Below, piece after piece: positions 19,201 to 28,400 of a stretch of 64,000 nt of DNA. This DNA is from Raillietiella orientalis (Eukaryota): assembly GCA_036172245.1 (NCBI GenBank), contig JAYWIR010000019.1:2108001-2172000 (forward strand). Direction: 5' to 3'. A program made the translations under genes and the position numbers. Below the pieces are notes generated by a model. It saw nothing but the letters and a program-made list of their open reading frames with translations. It made no database searches and had not been told where the DNA came from. Within the stretch, counting starts at the first letter, position 1. Each line of letters begins with the position of its first letter.

Positions 19201-22200
19201 AACACTTAATTGTAACAAGTCCGATTACCAGTAGTTTTTTTTTTTATTAGAGGAATGAATCAAAGACATGCAAATGTCTCTGTCGTGAAGGTGGAAAACT
19301 TAGCGCTTTGTAGCTAATCAGTCGTAAAAAAAAAATCATAATCCTAAAAAATCTCGAGCTTCGTAAGTTTTAGCTTTTTTGATGTGCACTTGGATTCAAA
19401 GAGTGCATTCAGATTTGTTTCAGGAAATGTATGTTCATGTCGGGGATTTAGAGAAAAAGAGTTTAGTAGTTTCTGATGTTTGTAGAAATTCTATTGACAT
19501 ATTTCAGCATTCGCATAGGTGTTTCTTGATCGGCTCGGTTTTAAGTTCGTAAAAGTTGAAAAATGCATGCTAATTCAGGAAATTTGATTGCTATAGATAT
19601 CTACTTCATCTAATAATATAATTGGACGAATGTCAAATCTTCAATTCACATGGTGTAGAAGTTTTGCTGCCAACTTTAAAAATACATTCTGGTTATGAAA
19701 TAAGATTGCACCAAATTAAAAATCCCAATTTGCCCTTATTTTTGAAAGTCTTCGAGAGCAGTTTAGTGACGAGAATGTTTTGGCAAATGAAGCACGTAAT
19801 AACAGATATTTTTTTACATCGTGATGTACAGTTTCAGTGAAGAAACACTCTCCAATGTCCTTCAAAGAATTGTGTTCTTTTCGTTTGTGTGTTCGTTGCA
19901 TGGGCTACGCACAGAGCAGGCATTCCAAGTGCGTGATAGCAGTTTCAGAAGATTCAGCTTCAACGTCTTTCTTCTTCTTTAGAGAATTCCTCTATCTAGC
20001 CGTTGCACTGCACGAATTGTAACCCACATTACAGTCGTACACACGTATTTTTTATCATGTGAATATGTATTACATTACAGTCAATATCTAACTTGGCGCA
20101 ATGACGTGGGTAATCGCGGAATTGTACACATGACTGTTTTGTATATATCTAAATAGGGCATTACAGTATGTGTGATCCAGTCATATATATATATATGTAT
20201 ATGTATCAGATTTTGTTTTTGTTTTTTTACACATTTCGTCAGAACTGTCAATTGTTTCTTTTTAATTAATGTACCTATTTAGACTTTCCTAATTGAAATT
20301 CCTGAATTTAGGATTGTAAACAGCTGAACGCAAACACGAGAGTCATTATTTGTTTTCATTTTGTTTGAAATGAATACATACGTCTCCGTGATCTGTTATA
20401 ACCAATGCAAATTATGTATTAACTGCTCTTCATTAATGTCACGAAACTAAATAGTTGCGTTTGCCGGCAAATGTGGTCATCAGTCGGCAAAGGAATTTTC
20501 TGGTGCTCGTCTCGTTCTTCACACAACATCGTCCGTGGTTTCAGTGTCCTTTTTGATAAAGGAATCCATGAGATTTCCAAAGGATTCATGTTGGGATGGA
20601 AGTGTACGTTCATCGCCATGTCGGCTGCCAGGAGTTTCTCGGATTACTCTGCAGTATCATTCTGACTAAGGAAAATGGAAGCGTTGAATGAAAAATTCGA
20701 AGAGATCACGGCTAAAAGAAGTTCAGGGTGTCTCTCGCCCTGTGTTATGTACATGGCTTGTTTTGTTGGACAAAGGCATTTCCTGTATTATGAAAATAGC
20801 TCCATAATATACATTGCATTGCGAAAGAAAAAGATGATTAAGTGGATTTATGAGTACACATTGAATGTCTTAAAAAGTCTTTCCACAAAAAAAATAAAAT
20901 TGGATCACCCGGAACAATGGGTGTTTCTGTTAGTTAATGAGATGCAACAAACAAGGAGCCCCTCACCATATTAGCACGATTGTCGAACAATCTCTCATGT
21001 GAGACAAAACTCCCTTGTCAGTGACCATCAGAAAGAAAAAGGAAAGGCACAGTAAATATTTCAGGAATCAATTTATAATGGATTAGCTTCATAGTAGGTA
21101 CGTATTAAGCCAATCGCGTAGCATTATCATACAAACAAAAACAAAGGGCCATCGTATAATCAAGCCAGTACAGGGTTATGCATTTATTTAAATCAACTTT
21201 CGGCAAGATAGCCAGTGACATTCATAAATAGCAATCTCATTAAATTTCATTTTTCCAGACATTCACAGCATGGTGCAATTCCCACTTGAGGAAAGCAGGC
21301 ACAAGCATAGAGAACATTGAAGAGGATTTTTGCAATGGCCTCAAATTGATGCTCCTATTGGAAGTAATATCAGGGGAAACTCTCCCCAAGCCAGATCGCG
21401 GCAAAATGAGATTTCATAAAATCGCCAATGTAAACAAAGCTCTAGATTTCATTGCTAGTAAGGGAGTGAAATTGGTCTCCATTGGTGCAGAAGGTAGATC
21501 CACGGAATGTATTGACTTATATTTGAAAAATCTTAGAAATCGTCGATGGAAATTTAAAGATGACTCTGGGAATGATATGGACCATCATTCTAAGATTTGC
21601 CATTCAAGATATTTCAGTTGAAGAAATGACAGCAAAAGAAGGTTTGTTGTTGTGGTGCCAGAGAAAAACTGCCCCCTACAAGAATGTAAATGTTCAAAAC
21701 TTTCATTTGAGGTTTGTGCATTTTGGAATTTCTCTTTGTAACTTGTATCATGCAGCTTTAAAGATGGGTTAGCATTCTGTGCTCTGATACACAGACATCG
21801 CCCTGAACTTATTGATTATGATAAGCTGTCAAAGGTGAGAGAATATTTTTGTCATTAAATACGTTGATGTGCTTTTACTAGGATAATCCTCTCATGAATT
21901 TGACTACCGCATTTGATGTAGCAGATAAATATCTAAACATCCCCAAAATGTTGGATCCTGAAGGTAAGAAAAGATTTAGTATGGATAAAAGCAAGAGTGG
22001 TAGAATGTGTCAGTGAATAATTTCATTTTGGTTGAGGAATTATTAAGGACAGGGCATTTGTATCTTTTTGACTTTTGCTTCAGACTTGATCACCCCATTC
22101 AAACCTGATGAACGAGCAATCATGACTTATGTGTCATGTTATTATCATGCCTTTCAGGGGGCACACCAGGTAATCTTGTATGACCCCTGTCCAGTGCTTA

Positions 22201-25401: not shown

Positions 25402-28400
25402 CTAGCAGTCTTCTGTAACTTGAGTATTGGATGATGAGGTTTGCCGGATCCAGTGTGATGCCTTTTTGGGGTCTAACAACATCTGTGCATTTGTCGACAT
25501 CGAATTAGCAGGATGCGAAGCACAAATACAGCCCTGCTGGCCACCACAGGGATGAGGAGCATAAAATAATTCATTAGCTGAACTACTTTCTGTTGTGCTG
25601 TAAGTTTCACTACATGAATCCTGCCAGTCTCGATCCCTTCCTAAGTAAACCGAGTGCTCTGTATGAAAACCTGAGGCAGCACTTCTCTCACTTGATTTGC
25701 TACTAGTATCACTATGTTTCATGCTTGGAAGTTGTGAAATGTCCGAAACGTTAGCATAACGAAAATATGGTGAAGGGGAGCGTGAGTCCTGCTGCACTGA
25801 ATAAGAAAGAGAGCTTCCAGTACAACTGTCATCTATGGATAACTTCATGTGTTCTAAAGCATCTGAACCAGAGAACTCTCTTTGAGACTGGTTCCAGGTT
25901 GATGCGTTGTATCTTTCTGCACTTTTTTGTGGAAGAGGATTTGTGTATGCAGACTGTGTTCTCATGGTTACAGAGATTTGGTTGGATGGATTTATGGAGG
26001 ATTCCTTAAACCTGTACTTAGATAATGAACCACGTTGCATTTACCTGTTCGGTAGTGGAGCACTGAGCCCAATGAGCACGAGGCATTTGCAAAGGAGATA
26101 ACCTGCCGCGGTAATTCGAATTATCATTTAGGAATTTTAAAGGGCGTGGCACAAGATTGAGACCAGGGCGTGAATGCCACGTCTGTCCATGATAAGTTTT
26201 ATGAAGGGTAGACATCCCGTTTTTATGTTCCATCTCCATACTAGAATACCTATTATTCATTTATGAAAGAAAACTAGAGATTGACGTTATTACCTATCTG
26301 GAATAAGCATAGGATGAAATGGACATACGTTAGACATTCCAATATTGTATCCTGCAGCTACAGACGCTAACATGCAAGCCATATGATAGAGTGCTTTCTC
26401 TAAAAAATTTGGGGTTACTAAAGCTGACTGCTTGTCTTCTGGATGATTTTTATATAAAGTGGGATAACATGGGGAACATAACTCAAGTGATCTGTTCTCT
26501 AGAATGTTGTTTGTGAAATAACTGGGGATTAAAAAAATATAACATACTTGTTTTATGAGGCTGAATTAGGACATTGCTTGCCTTGTTTATCAAAGAAATA
26601 AATCCTTGTGAGTTGGGCGAACGTCGTCCTTGGGAAGCAGAAGATACAGGCAAATTCCGTCTTTCCCGCACGTTCAAAGTACTGGGACCCCAAGTTTTAC
26701 CTTTGATTCCATCAGCTGGAACTAAATGCTAATTAACATGATGTGGTCAAAACATTTCAATTCTTGATAAAGAAAAAATTAGTCTACATGATTCCCTAAT
26801 CCGATAAATCTACTAAGACGTTTTAAGCTTTCTTCTTATAACTTACATGCAATGGCTCTTAACCTAGAGACACTAGGTGAAGCTGGAGGAGTATCTGGAC
26901 TTGAGTTTGAGGAAGTCTGTTTTACAGTTATGTTATGACGAAAATCTATGACAAAAATTGGAACAGCATTTACTTAATACATTGGTGGTCTTAAAAATAA
27001 AATTACCACTAGGTCTGCTGATGCTGTTTTTACAGAGCAGCTTCAAGTGAGAATCACAAAAACAGCCTTTACGCTGGCTAGGAGTAGGCCGAATTTCGTG
27101 CTGTTGCTGCTTTTGCAAAAGAAAACTCAATTCTGATATCAGAAGTTCAAATTCACGTTGATTTAGTTCTTCTTCTCGTTTCTTAAGGATCTCTTCTTGA
27201 ACCTTTTGTTGCTCTTGAGCTCTTGAAAGTTCTTCTTCACGATTTTTGAGTTCCTTGGGAAAAATTTTAAACAGCACACCGATTGGAAAACCTACTTTCT
27301 CTTTACGTCTCATTTCCTCCATTATGCTATCTATCTCAATTCTCCAATTCTCTTGCAACGTGTGGAAAGATCCGAAGGATATCCACCTGAATGAAGAATT
27401 AGAAATACTATCTAAAACTTCTAATATTTTTTTAAAAGTGGGTCTTCTATGAGGATTGGAATTCCAACAGGCTAAAAGCAGCTTAAGACTAGAATGGATA
27501 CAAAGATTTCATACCTTCCATTAATTGTTTCCATTGTTTCGGACATGTAGACGGGATTGGTAAAGTTAACTTGTTCATAGCAACTCCGTATGCTACTGCT
27601 AATGCATCCATACCTTTGTAAGGCACTTCTCCTGTGAGCAACTCCCAAAGCAAAACACCATAACTGAAACATGAGCGAATCTGTAAATAACATTTTGGGG
27701 GATCTTCTAGATTTAACAGAACAATGTTGAAACTAAGGAAAGTTTTTGTACTATCACCCACAAAACAGGAATAAAAAAACGATGTTCTTGTAGCATTGAG
27801 TTCTGTGATGTTTTAAAAACGATGAGACATTGTAACGAGGTGCTATTTTGGAAATTCTACGGAAAATCCTGGTCTCCGTCTCCCTTCTCACATCAAGACA
27901 TTGCTTAAACATAAGTATCATGTTTCATGCTTGAAAGTTGCAATTCATGTATCATTTTAATAGAAACTTAAAGAGTCATTGCACATAAGTTATCAGAAGA
28001 AAAATTAAAACGTCCTAGTAGACTTATAGGATTAGGAAATCAGATAGACTAATTTTTTGCACCAAGGTCACTAAAACTTATTTACTCTTCAAAAATCCAA
28101 ACAACAAATAAATACTTTTACTACCTTTCAATTCAATTAAAAAACATATACGCTACATAATTGCAATGGGTATTCATTTACAATGGTACAATGGTGTAAG
28201 CTCAAACCTAATAAGAATCCTCTTCCAATATGGAAAGAATAAAAGAACACGGAATTCAAAATACCACAAAAAACAGTTCCCTGAAAAAAACTTGAATTTT
28301 GAATTAATGGAGCATTTCGATACCACACCATTCAGTTAACAGTAACATACCTGGAATTTCCATTTGACCTCTTTCTTTTCATTACTTGTATTCCATGGGT

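What the first reader, a model, noticed from the sequence alone, without database searches (positions are those of the whole stretch)
21331..27080. Normally conserved residues replaced by CpG-decay products (Arg>Cys/His, Thr>Met)
Against recalled fly/human actinin: EEDF[R>C]NG (TGC 21331), AE[T>M]AANRICK (ATG 22478), R[R>H].AL (CAT 23371), V[R>C].LVP (TGC 23804), LR[R>C]QF (TGT 23923), QL.[R>C]L (TGC 24078) and FMT[R>H]E (CAT 24751). The MLK basic patch reads [10 protein letters not shown] where K/R is usual. Each actinin change is one transition from CGY or ACG. Methylation-driven mutation appears to be overriding purifying selection in a very conserved protein, pointing to small effective population size/asexuality, a relaxed duplicate, or (for CAT) possible A-to-I restoration.
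Basis: partly seen in the sequence, partly recalled or inferred. Interest (0 to 1): 0.72.

Follow-up and report, generated by a model that had tools for sequence, protein, structure and literature searches.

The report
CpG-decay arginine losses in alpha-actinin
An intact arthropod alpha-actinin gene lying in CpG-depleted DNA has replaced several almost invariant arginines with cysteine or histidine, a clear example of a familiar process: mutation at methylated CpG sites.

Summary
Window 16292-25022 (+) is an intact 19-exon, 893-aa alpha-actinin gene. All seven codons are as described. Against 159 full-length arthropod actinins the replaced residues are Arg in 77-100% of sequences, and Cys or His never occurs there. 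Thr257 is the exception, because Met recurs elsewhere.

The window is the extreme of 160 sequences. It has the most Cys (17) and His (33) and nearly the fewest Arg (50; median 61). It has 4 Arg>Cys in 129 differences from consensus, against 8 in 12,200 for all others. The gene body is CpG-depleted (o/e 0.30-0.40) with TpG/CpA excess; intron 1 and the flanks are not.

Any single-step Arg>Cys, Arg>His or Thr>Met is a CpG transition by the genetic code, so the real finding is the excess. Total departures at conserved columns (18) and branch length are ordinary for an isolated lineage, so general relaxation is not indicated. The neighbouring MLK and pecanex genes share Arg depletion but not the Cys/His route. 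Reads, RNA and the genome were unavailable, so artefact, a second copy and editing stay untested. This is a known mechanism and a strong example of it.

The parts
16292..25022 (+). Alpha-actinin gene, start codon to stop codon. It has 19 coding exons and encodes 893 aa. Intron 1 is 4862 nt; most other introns are 40-47 nt.
   Evidence: Splice sites and translation. Colinear tblastn match to an arthropod actinin. Pfam CH, Spectrin, EF-hand and EFhand_Ca_insen hits on exons. Identity 86% to the best full-length homologue.
16292..16396 (+). Exon 1 (35 codons). It lies in DNA that is not CpG-depleted.
   Evidence: exon 1 CpG o/e 0.62; start of intron 1 1.33.
22084..22169 (+). Exon 6a, one of a pair of mutually exclusive exons.
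   Evidence: Both versions give an open 893-aa frame. Each matches one isoform type of other arthropods.
22317..22402 (+). Exon 6b, the alternative to exon 6a.
21331..21333 (+). Codon 60, TGC (Cys), where 159/159 actinins have Arg. Located in the CH1 domain.
   Evidence: Arg codon is CGC in 16 and CGT in 1 of 29 environmental actinin ORFs.
22478..22480 (+). Codon 257, ATG (Met), where 154/159 have Thr. Met recurs in other lineages.
   Evidence: M in 9/38 ORFs; ACG in 5 of 27 Thr codons.
23371..23373 (+). Codon 494, CAT (His), where 157/158 have Arg.
   Evidence: CGY in 15/33 Arg codons.
23804..23806 (+). Codon 608, TGC (Cys), at an Arg/Lys column (R 128, K 26, Q 4).
23923..23925 (+). Codon 633, TGT (Cys), where 158/159 have Arg.
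   Evidence: CGY in 16/25 Arg codons.
24078..24080 (+). Codon 671, TGC (Cys), at an Arg/Lys column (R 123, K 31, Q 4, E 1).
24751..24753 (+). Codon 819, CAT (His), where 158/159 have Arg. Located in the EF-hand region.
   Evidence: AGR 19, CGY 13, CGA 3 of 35 Arg codons.
20001..44000 (.). CpG-depleted, AT-rich domain: CpG o/e 0.35-0.54, TpG+CpA o/e 1.22-1.38, GC 0.30-0.39. It covers actinin exons 2-19, the MLK gene and most of pecanex.
   Evidence: (4-kb bins).
27032..27070 (-). MLK basic patch after the leucine zipper. It has three Lys>Cys (TGT), one Arg>His (CAC) and one Arg>Lys.
   Evidence: K in 89-97% and R in 70-83% of 120 homologues at these columns.
25405..32247 (-). Mixed-lineage kinase (MLK/MAP3K9-11-like) gene: SH3, kinase, zipper and C-terminal exons.
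   Evidence: Pfam. Homologues. tblastn.
33030..45365 (+). Pecanex gene, including a 989-codon open exon (40475-43441) and the Pecanex_C domain (43995-44753).

Best explanation
This is the working alpha-actinin gene of an unplaced pancrustacean lineage. From exon 2 onward its gene body has long been methylated in the germ line.

Methylated CpGs mutate to TpG or CpA far faster than other sites. In CGN arginine codons both of those transitions change the amino acid: CGY gives Cys or His, and CGR gives Gln, Trp or stop. Like other arthropod actinins, this gene probably started rich in CGY arginine codons. On its long, isolated branch, the few replacements that reached fixation at conserved columns were therefore drawn disproportionately from this hypermutable class, which produced Arg>Cys x4, Arg>His x2, Arg>Gln x3 and Thr>Met x1.

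Selection is still acting. The frame, the splice sites, the alternative exon pair and 86% identity are all kept, and no CGA>TGA stop is seen.

Arginine depletion is shared by the neighbouring genes, and the ancestral codon sets the route. AGR-rich MLK lost Arg mainly to Lys.

Shown: the codons, their conservation, the excess, the CpG depletion and the codon states in other arthropods. Inferred: the methylation itself, the ancestral CGY state in this lineage, and fixation (as opposed to polymorphism or assembly error).
For: 1. Gene integrity: 19 exons, all GT-AG, 893 aa, both alternative exon-6 versions open. Pfam domains fit the actinin architecture.
2. Conservation of the replaced residues and Arg in solved vertebrate actinins.
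3. Outlier status: 4 R>C/H at >=95% columns against a maximum of 2 elsewhere. Cys is 17 against a maximum of 15, His is 33 against a maximum of 29, and Arg is 50 against a median of 61. CpG-obligate classes are 10/129 against a maximum share of 4.4%.
4. Of 13 consensus-Arg columns lost, 9 became C, H or Q and only 3 became K. In the other 159 sequences, Arg at conserved columns departs mostly to K (18 cells) and Q (14), and to C only twice.
5. Methylation-type footprint confined to the gene body: CDS CpG o/e 0.40, short introns 0.30, intron 1 0.82-1.33, flanks 0.82-1.06, with matching TpG/CpA excess.
6. 25 of the 44 remaining CDS CpGs sit in CGN Arg codons, and NCG codons are 8 of 162 four-fold Thr/Ala/Ser/Pro codons. 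This is expected if decay is old and filtered by selection.
7. CGY is common at these sites in 38 environmental actinin ORFs. With 15 of them as outgroups, 7 of 129 differences are single CpG transitions, and 4 of those 7 fall among the 18 departures at >=95% columns.
8. Total departures and branch length are ordinary.
9. At >=95% Arg columns, 41 of 45 are kept and all 4 losses are to C or H.
10. Literature: CGN codons change amino acid on both strands, and Arg content falls with gene-body methylation in a coral (passages read in PMC4989105).
Against: - No direct methylation data were available.
- No reads could be laid on the region, so the seven codons rest on the assembly alone.
- MLK (2/175) and pecanex (5/380) in the same CpG-depleted domain show no CpG-type excess.
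- Much of the His gain is not CpG-type. In actinin 6 of 13 gains are Q>H transversions. In MLK His comes from G, E, V, Q, S, K and N. Some wider composition shift must therefore also be at work.
- Other CpG-depleted actinin ORFs (L015 at o/e 0.40, L010 at 0.52) kept 57-65 Arg by using AGR. CpG decay alone therefore does not force Arg loss.
- At site 819 AGR is the commonest codon elsewhere (19/35).
- No close relative was found (best 86%), so the ancestral codons of this lineage are unknown.
- The Fisher tests treat related sequences as independent.
Confidence: 0.6

Rival explanations
1. General, not methylation-specific, composition drift. AT-biased mutation, or a lineage-wide shift in amino-acid usage, removes Arg and adds His, Cys and Lys. 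The actinin Arg>Cys/His changes would then be just the visible tip of that shift.
For: All three genes are Arg-poor relative to homologues. MLK has the lowest Arg of 120 and the highest His. Pecanex has 4 homologues lower and 43 higher. MLK loses Arg mainly to Lys (11/17), and its His gains come from many residues. In actinin 6 of 13 His gains are Q>H transversions. The region has GC 0.30-0.39.
Against: Intron 1 is just as AT-rich (GC 0.33-0.38) but not CpG-depleted (o/e 0.82-1.03), so AT richness and CpG loss are separable here. Arg>Cys is possible in one step only from CGY. At >=95% Arg columns every loss is to C or H and none is to K. Pecanex shows no Cys or His excess.
Confidence: 0.17
2. 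Assembly, base-calling or single-individual artefact. The true germ-line codons would be CGY, and the TGY/CAY letters would come from systematic miscalls at 5-methylcytosine, unpolished errors, or rare heterozygous variants captured in the reference.
For: All seven changes are exactly the letters expected if a methylated C were read as T on either strand. No independent reads or runs could be obtained. The genome itself is not held.
Against: The changes look filtered by selection. Across 893 codons with 8 retained CGA there is no CGA>TGA stop, while 3 CGR>CAR (Gln) changes occur. CpG survival is concentrated in Arg codons (25/44) and is low at NCG codons and in introns, which is a pattern of old decay. 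MLK and pecanex in the same domain show no such excess. These are small numbers and not decisive.
Confidence: 0.12
3. Relaxed purifying selection. This would be a redundant second actinin copy, or a lineage with very small effective population size or asexual reproduction, in which slightly deleterious changes of all kinds become fixed.
For: Replacements hit columns invariant in 157-159 other sequences. Other CpG-depleted actinins kept their Arg count by shifting to AGR, whereas this one lost Arg.
Against: Departures at >=95% columns number 18, within the 18-24 range of other isolated lineages. Root-to-tip length is 0.718 against a maximum of 0.80. The open frame is intact, splice sites are canonical and the alternative exon pair is conserved. 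It is the mutational spectrum that is unusual, not the amount of change. A second copy could not be sought because no genome is held. None lies in this window.
Confidence: 0.08
4. RNA-level restoration. A-to-I editing of the middle A of the two CAT codons would restore Arg in the protein, so the genomic change would cost nothing.
For: CAU edited at the A reads as CGU (Arg). Both His sites are >=99% Arg elsewhere.
Against: Editing cannot rescue the four Cys codons or the Met codon. Folding of +/-100 nt around each A gives z -0.61 and -0.38, inside the control range of -1.67 to +1.65 from 24 positions along the gene. Both sites have the context C-A-U. From recalled knowledge rather than any call, this is not the preferred ADAR neighbourhood.
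Confidence: 0.03

Closest known systems
Arthropod alpha-actinin (Actn; 'alpha-actinin, sarcomeric'). Closest stored sequences: P0187 (named Harmonia axyridis isoform X1 by its source), P0050 (Cacopsylla melanoneura), P0148 (Carabus blaptoides).
   Same: Colinear over 888 aligned residues at 85.5-86% identity. CH-CH, spectrin repeats, EF-hands and the Ca-insensitive EF-hand are present. It has a mutually exclusive exon pair after the actin-binding domain that matches the two isoform types.
   Different: It has 18 departures at columns >=95% conserved, of which 4 are Arg>Cys/His that no other sequence shows. It has the highest Cys and His and nearly the lowest Arg of 160 sequences. No relative closer than 86% was found.
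CpG hypermutability shaping codon and amino-acid content of gene-body-methylated genes in invertebrates (Dixon, Bay & Matz 2016, PMC4989105; passages read).
   Same: NCG codons are depleted. CGN Arg codons are vulnerable on both strands. Arg content is lower in methylated genes.
   Different: In the coral the Arg effect is a weak genome-wide correlation (r = -0.06 in the passage read). Here it is concentrated in one ultra-conserved protein and reaches invariant columns. Methylation itself is only inferred here.
Vertebrate CpG-transition missense spectrum, in which Arg>Cys/His/Gln/Trp dominates human disease and polymorphism data. This is recalled textbook knowledge and comes from no call.
   Same: The chemistry and the codon logic are the same.
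   Different: Those are mostly segregating or de novo variants removed by selection. Here the products appear as the reference state of a lineage.
ADAR recoding sites that restore an ancestral residue. Recalled concept; considered only for the two CAT codons.
   Same: A genomic G>A change could in principle be reversed in the mRNA.
   Different: No structural signal was found and no RNA data exist. It cannot apply to 5 of the 7 sites.

Membership tests
Alpha-actinin | N-terminal tandem calponin-homology (CH) actin-binding domain | tested here: met
   Pfam CH hits on exon 2 (E 7.5e-15) and exon 3 (E 9.8e-06). Exon 2 matches PDB alpha-actinin-2/3/1/4 ABD chains at E 1e-40 to 1e-45.
Alpha-actinin | Central rod of spectrin repeats | tested here: met
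   Pfam Spectrin hits on exons 8, 10 and 12 (E 1.2e-3, 4e-15, 7e-7). Only exon-sized pieces were scanned, so the count of four repeats was not verified directly. Alignment is colinear with 159 actinins.
Alpha-actinin | C-terminal calmodulin-like domain: EF-hands plus the Ca2+-insensitive EF-hand | tested here: met
   Pfam EF-hand_6/EF-hand_1 on exon 17, and EFhand_Ca_insen on exons 18-19 (E 7e-16). PDB match to the ACTN1 CaM-like domain.
Alpha-actinin | Full-length orthology to arthropod Actn rather than spectrin, filamin or dystrophin | tested here: met
   Identity is 79-86% over about 888 residues to sequences their sources name alpha-actinin. It groups within Pancrustacea in a FastTree of 54 sequences chosen by hand.
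Germ-line gene-body methylation (historical) | CpG o/e well below 1 with reciprocal TpG/CpA excess, confined to the transcribed body | tested here: met
   CpG o/e is 0.35-0.54 and TpG+CpA o/e 1.22-1.38 across 20-44 kb. Flanks are 0.82-1.06 and 0.94-1.19. CDS is 0.40, short introns 0.30, intron 1 0.82-1.33.
Germ-line gene-body methylation (historical) | 5-methylcytosine actually present at the gene's CpGs, and DNMT1/DNMT3 in the genome | not testable with these tools
   No genome is held. No sequencing run was listed.
CpG-transition amino-acid replacement | The derived codon is one C>T or G>A step from a CpG-bearing ancestral codon | tested here: inconclusive
   This is forced by the code for single-step R>C, R>H and T>M. 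CGY is frequent at sites 60, 494 and 633 in other arthropods, but AGR is commonest at 819. The ancestor of this lineage is unknown because the best relative is only 86% identical.
ADAR recoding site | The edited A lies in a stable double-stranded RNA structure | tested here: not met
   z -0.61 and -0.38 for +/-100 nt, against control z of -1.67 to +1.65. This is a weak test because only local folding was used.
ADAR recoding site | A-to-G difference between RNA and DNA | not testable with these tools
   No RNA holder was listed.

The most novel reading that the evidence does not exclude
This lineage may combine unusually heavy or long-standing exon methylation with weak selection (small Ne or asexuality). 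Mutation pressure would then be rewriting invariant arginines across its most conserved, most highly expressed (CGY-rich) proteins. That would be a proteome-wide Arg>Cys/His ratchet, with actinin as the first visible case. The genome would be a natural experiment on how far CpG decay can push against purifying selection. A minor variant of this reading is that the two His codons are rescued by A-to-I editing.
Probability: 0.15. Interest if true: 0.6.

Novelty: new member of a known kind. Interest (0 to 1): 0.33.

Why it matters
Why gene-body methylation persists on exons despite its mutational cost is an open question in invertebrate epigenomics; the passages read in PMC4989105 frame it that way. 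Most evidence for that cost is statistical, such as codon bias and weak Arg depletion. Here the cost appears residue by residue in one of the most conserved animal proteins. Four positions that are Arg in 157-159 of 158-159 arthropod sequences, two of which were also checked in solved vertebrate structures and carry Arg there (sites 60 and 819), now read Cys or His, while the gene otherwise looks fully functional. If the codons are confirmed in reads, the gene gives a concrete set of natural substitutions for testing how much function such replacements cost. It would also motivate a genome-wide count in this lineage. If reads contradict the codons, the finding instead marks a systematic assembly error at methylated sites, which is also worth knowing.

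Tried and rejected
- Whole-genome tests (a second actinin copy, a proteome-wide R>C/H count): no genome is held for this window.
DNA confirmation, expression and editing could therefore not be examined.
- Earlier scan notes: three look-ups returned nothing.
- Close relatives for ancestral-codon reconstruction: none was found. Best identity was 86% among 159 proteins and 84.8% among 38 environmental ORFs. The exon-12 search topped out at 81-84%.
- RNA-editing structure test: no signal.
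- Pecanex, first pass: one piece (44757-44895) was taken in the wrong frame, and the end of another ran into an intron. The apparent R>C at 44826 and the cluster of departures at 44688-44826 are artefacts of that. The pieces were corrected and the artefacts discarded.
- (a MAFFT --auto run) timed out. It was repeated with faster settings.
- Pfam on 17 of the largest ORFs in the GC-rich flanks found nothing, so the flanks gave no further genes to test.
- Pseudogene reading: rejected, because the frame is open and the splice sites are canonical.
- Adaptive gain of redox- or metal-binding Cys/His: considered, but nothing here tests it. It is given negligible weight because the replaced positions are scattered over the CH1, rod and EF-hand regions.

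Full report
WHAT IS THERE

Reading the window in six frames and comparing it with arthropod actinins shows one alpha-actinin gene on the + strand. Exon 1 (16292-16396) is separated by a 4862-nt intron from 18 further exons packed into 21259-25022. Most of the remaining introns are only 40-47 nt. All 18 introns are GT-AG. The spliced frame is open for 893 codons with either member of a mutually exclusive exon pair (22084-22169 or 22317-22402). Exon-sized pieces hit Pfam CH, Spectrin, EF-hand and EFhand_Ca_insen. Exons 2 and 18 match solved alpha-actinin structures.

Downstream lie a mixed-lineage kinase gene on the minus strand (about 25.4-32.2 kb) and a pecanex gene on the plus strand (33.0-45.4 kb).

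CHECKING THE OBSERVATION

From the 227 proteins fetched with exon 2 and exon 12 as queries, I kept the 159 that were 860-940 aa, free of X and non-identical, and aligned them with the window's protein. The columns read as follows:
- site 60: Arg 159/159
- site 494: Arg 157/158
- site 633: Arg 158/159
- site 819: Arg 158/159
- site 608: Arg 128, Lys 26, Gln 4
- site 671: Arg 123, Lys 31, Gln 4, Glu 1
- site 257: Thr 154, Met 5

Cys or His occurs at none of the six Arg columns in any of these sequences. Human and chicken actinins in the PDB also have Arg at sites 60 and 819. Thr257>Met is the weak member of the list, because Met is also present in 9 of 38 environmental actinin ORFs.

The MLK patch is as described. 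However, its three Cys replace Lys, which is not a one-step change.

IS IT MORE THAN CHANCE?

- In a leave-one-out count over all 160 sequences, the window has 18 departures from columns that are >=95% conserved in the others. Four of the 18 are Arg>Cys/His. The next highest sequence has 2, eight have 1, and 150 have 0.
- Elsewhere, Arg at such columns departs mainly to Lys (18 cells) and Gln (14), and to Cys only twice.
- Against the majority consensus the window differs at 129 of 888 positions. Ten of these are classes that can arise in one step only by a CpG transition (R>C 4, R>H 2, R>Q 3, T>M 1). That is 7.8%, against a maximum of 4.4% among the others.
- R>C is 4/129 against 8/12,200 in all the others together (Fisher p = 5e-6). 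R>C/H is 6/129 against 49/12,200 (p = 2e-5). These tests treat related sequences as independent and so overstate significance.
- In composition the window is the extreme of 160: Cys 17 (others at most 15), His 33 (others at most 29), Arg 50 (median 61; only 2 sequences lower).

WHAT THE 'CpG-DECAY' LABEL DOES AND DOES NOT SAY

By the genetic code, Cys and His are each reachable from Arg in one step only from CGY, and Met from Thr only from ACG. Every one of those steps is C>T or G>A within a CpG. The evidence lies in the excess and in the context.

The context fits. In 4-kb bins, 20-44 kb has CpG o/e 0.35-0.54 with TpG+CpA o/e 1.22-1.38. The flanks have 0.82-1.06 and 0.94-1.19. Within the gene, the CDS has CpG o/e 0.40 and the short introns 0.30. 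Intron 1 is just as AT-rich (GC 0.33-0.38 beyond its first 800 nt) but has o/e 0.82-1.33. Of the 44 CpGs left in the CDS, 25 are in CGN Arg codons, where both transitions change the protein. Only 8 of 162 four-fold Thr/Ala/Ser/Pro codons are NCG. This is the pattern expected from old decay filtered by selection.

THE ANCESTRAL-CODON TEST

No close relative exists in the collections I could search, with a best of 86%. I therefore read the codons of 38 environmental, mostly intron-free actinin ORFs. These were the 38 of 73 loci with an ORF of at least 600 codons; the other 35 were dropped, and several of the 38 are near-duplicates. Results:
- CGY is the commonest Arg codon class at site 60 (17 of 29, of which CGC is 16), at site 494 (15 of 33) and at site 633 (16 of 25).
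- CGY is present but rare at sites 608 (2 loci) and 671 (5 loci).
- At site 819 AGR is commonest (19 of 35; CGY 13).

I then used 15 of these loci as outgroups, hand-picked at >=78% identity with one per near-duplicate set. Seven of the 129 differences are single CpG transitions, 20 are other transitions, 50 are transversions, 45 need more than one step and 7 had no usable outgroup codon. Four of the seven CpG transitions fall among the 18 departures at >=95% columns. At the 45 Arg columns that are >=95% conserved, 41 are kept (CGY 13, CGR 8, AGR 20), and all four losses are to Cys or His.

IS SELECTION RELAXED?

The amount of change is ordinary. Eighteen departures at conserved columns lies within the 18-24 seen in other phylogenetically isolated sequences. 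In a FastTree of 54 sequences chosen by hand from the 160, the window sits in an unresolved position at the base of Pancrustacea. Its root-to-tip length of 0.718 is below the maximum of 0.80. The unusual feature is the kind of change, not the quantity. That argues for a mutational-spectrum effect rather than a redundant copy.

One hint does point the other way. Other CpG-depleted actinin ORFs (o/e 0.40-0.52) kept 57-65 Arg by using AGR codons, whereas this gene lost Arg.

IS IT REGIONAL?

I repeated the comparison for the two neighbouring genes.

MLK, 120 homologues, 462 columns:
- The window has the lowest Arg fraction and the highest His fraction of all.
- Of 29 consensus-Arg columns 17 are lost, 11 of them to Lys. 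Only 2 of 175 differences are CpG-obligate classes, which is below the median of the others.
- Its remaining Arg codons are mostly AGR (16 of 22).

Pecanex, the 48 of 150 hits that were at least 1400 aa, 1042 columns:
- Arg is low (4 lower, 43 higher), while Cys and His are unremarkable.
- CpG-type changes are 5 of 380, a share equalled or exceeded by 13 of the 48 others.

Arg depletion is therefore shared, but the Cys/His route is specific to actinin. This fits a codon-dependent route: CGY-rich actinin goes to Cys or His, and AGR-rich MLK goes to Lys. That link is an inference. Many His gains in actinin (6 of 13 are Q>H) and in MLK come from non-CpG changes. A broader composition shift is therefore also present and remains unexplained.

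RIVALS

Artefact. An assembly or base-calling artefact at methylated cytosines would give exactly these letters, and I could not see any reads. Against it:
- There is no CGA>TGA stop among 893 codons, despite 8 surviving CGA codons and 3 CGR>CAR changes.
- CpG survival depends on codon position.
These are small numbers.

RNA editing. Editing could rescue only the two CAT codons. Local folding around them is unremarkable (z -0.61 and -0.38; 24 controls from -1.67 to +1.65).

Second copy. A second actinin copy, and any genome-wide test, could not be addressed because no genome is held.

COMPARISON WITH WHAT IS KNOWN

The protein passes every alpha-actinin membership feature I could test.

The process is the known mutational cost of gene-body methylation. 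Passages read in Dixon et al. 2016 (PMC4989105) state two things. CGN codons change the amino acid on both strands, and Arg content falls weakly with methylation in a coral. The dominance of Arg>Cys/His/Gln among vertebrate CpG mutations is recalled textbook knowledge, not from a call.

This case differs in degree. The effect reaches near-invariant columns of a very conserved protein and makes that protein the compositional extreme of 160 homologues.

I ran only one literature search, so I make no claim that such a case is absent from print.

VERDICT

The mechanism is plausible and familiar but rests on an unverified assembly. The finding is of moderate interest as a clean example and as a pointer to a genome-wide test in this lineage.

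Noticed in passing
window 21494-24863: Introns of the actinin gene after intron 1 are tiny and uniform. Thirteen of the 17 are 40-47 nt, and the exceptions are 120, 302 (spanning alternative exon 6b) and 144 nt. The 144-nt intron (24346-24489), just before the EF-hand exons, was not checked for a hidden alternative exon.
   Followed up: partly
window 1-8000 and 52000-64000: The flanks are GC-rich (0.50-0.63) with near-normal CpG o/e (0.82-0.93). This contrasts sharply with the AT-rich, CpG-poor 20-44 kb core. Seventeen of their largest ORFs gave no Pfam hit. What these flanks are is unknown.
   Followed up: partly
window 16397-21258: Actinin intron 1 is AT-rich (GC 0.33-0.38 beyond its first 800 nt, which have GC 0.47) but not CpG-depleted (o/e 0.82-1.33). 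The depletion begins abruptly at about exon 2, which suggests a sharp boundary of the inferred methylated domain.
   Followed up: partly
window 27232-27274 (-), inside the MLK zipper region: A 14-residue in-frame insertion relative to homologues sits between the kinase end and the leucine zipper. It is probably an unspliced intron of about 42 nt of the same tiny class rather than coding sequence. The coordinates are approximate, taken from the alignment.
   Followed up: no
window 31525-32184 (-) and 26984-27472 (-): The MLK protein has the highest His fraction of 120 homologues. The His gains come from many different residues (G, E, V, Q, S, K, N), mostly as CAT codons. CpG decay does not explain this.
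   Followed up: partly
L010-L014, L017, L018, L026, L027 (codon aligned to window 22478): A whole group of environmental actinin ORFs, 79-80% identical to the window, carries Met (ATG) at the Thr257 column. This replacement has therefore arisen more than once.
   Followed up: yes
window 24078-24086: Two codons after the Arg671>Cys change, a column that is Lys in 138 of 159 sequences reads Arg (CGT) in the window. Three of the four Lys>Arg gains in the gene use CGT, so new CpG-bearing Arg codons are still being created.
   Followed up: no
window 40475-43441 (+): A single 989-codon open exon of pecanex has no Pfam hit of its own. Its first roughly 300 codons match homologues only weakly.
   Followed up: no
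window 24592-24594: Tyr781>Cys (TGC) lies at a column that is Tyr in 159/159 sequences. It is an A>G change unrelated to CpG decay, and it adds to the Cys excess.
   Followed up: no
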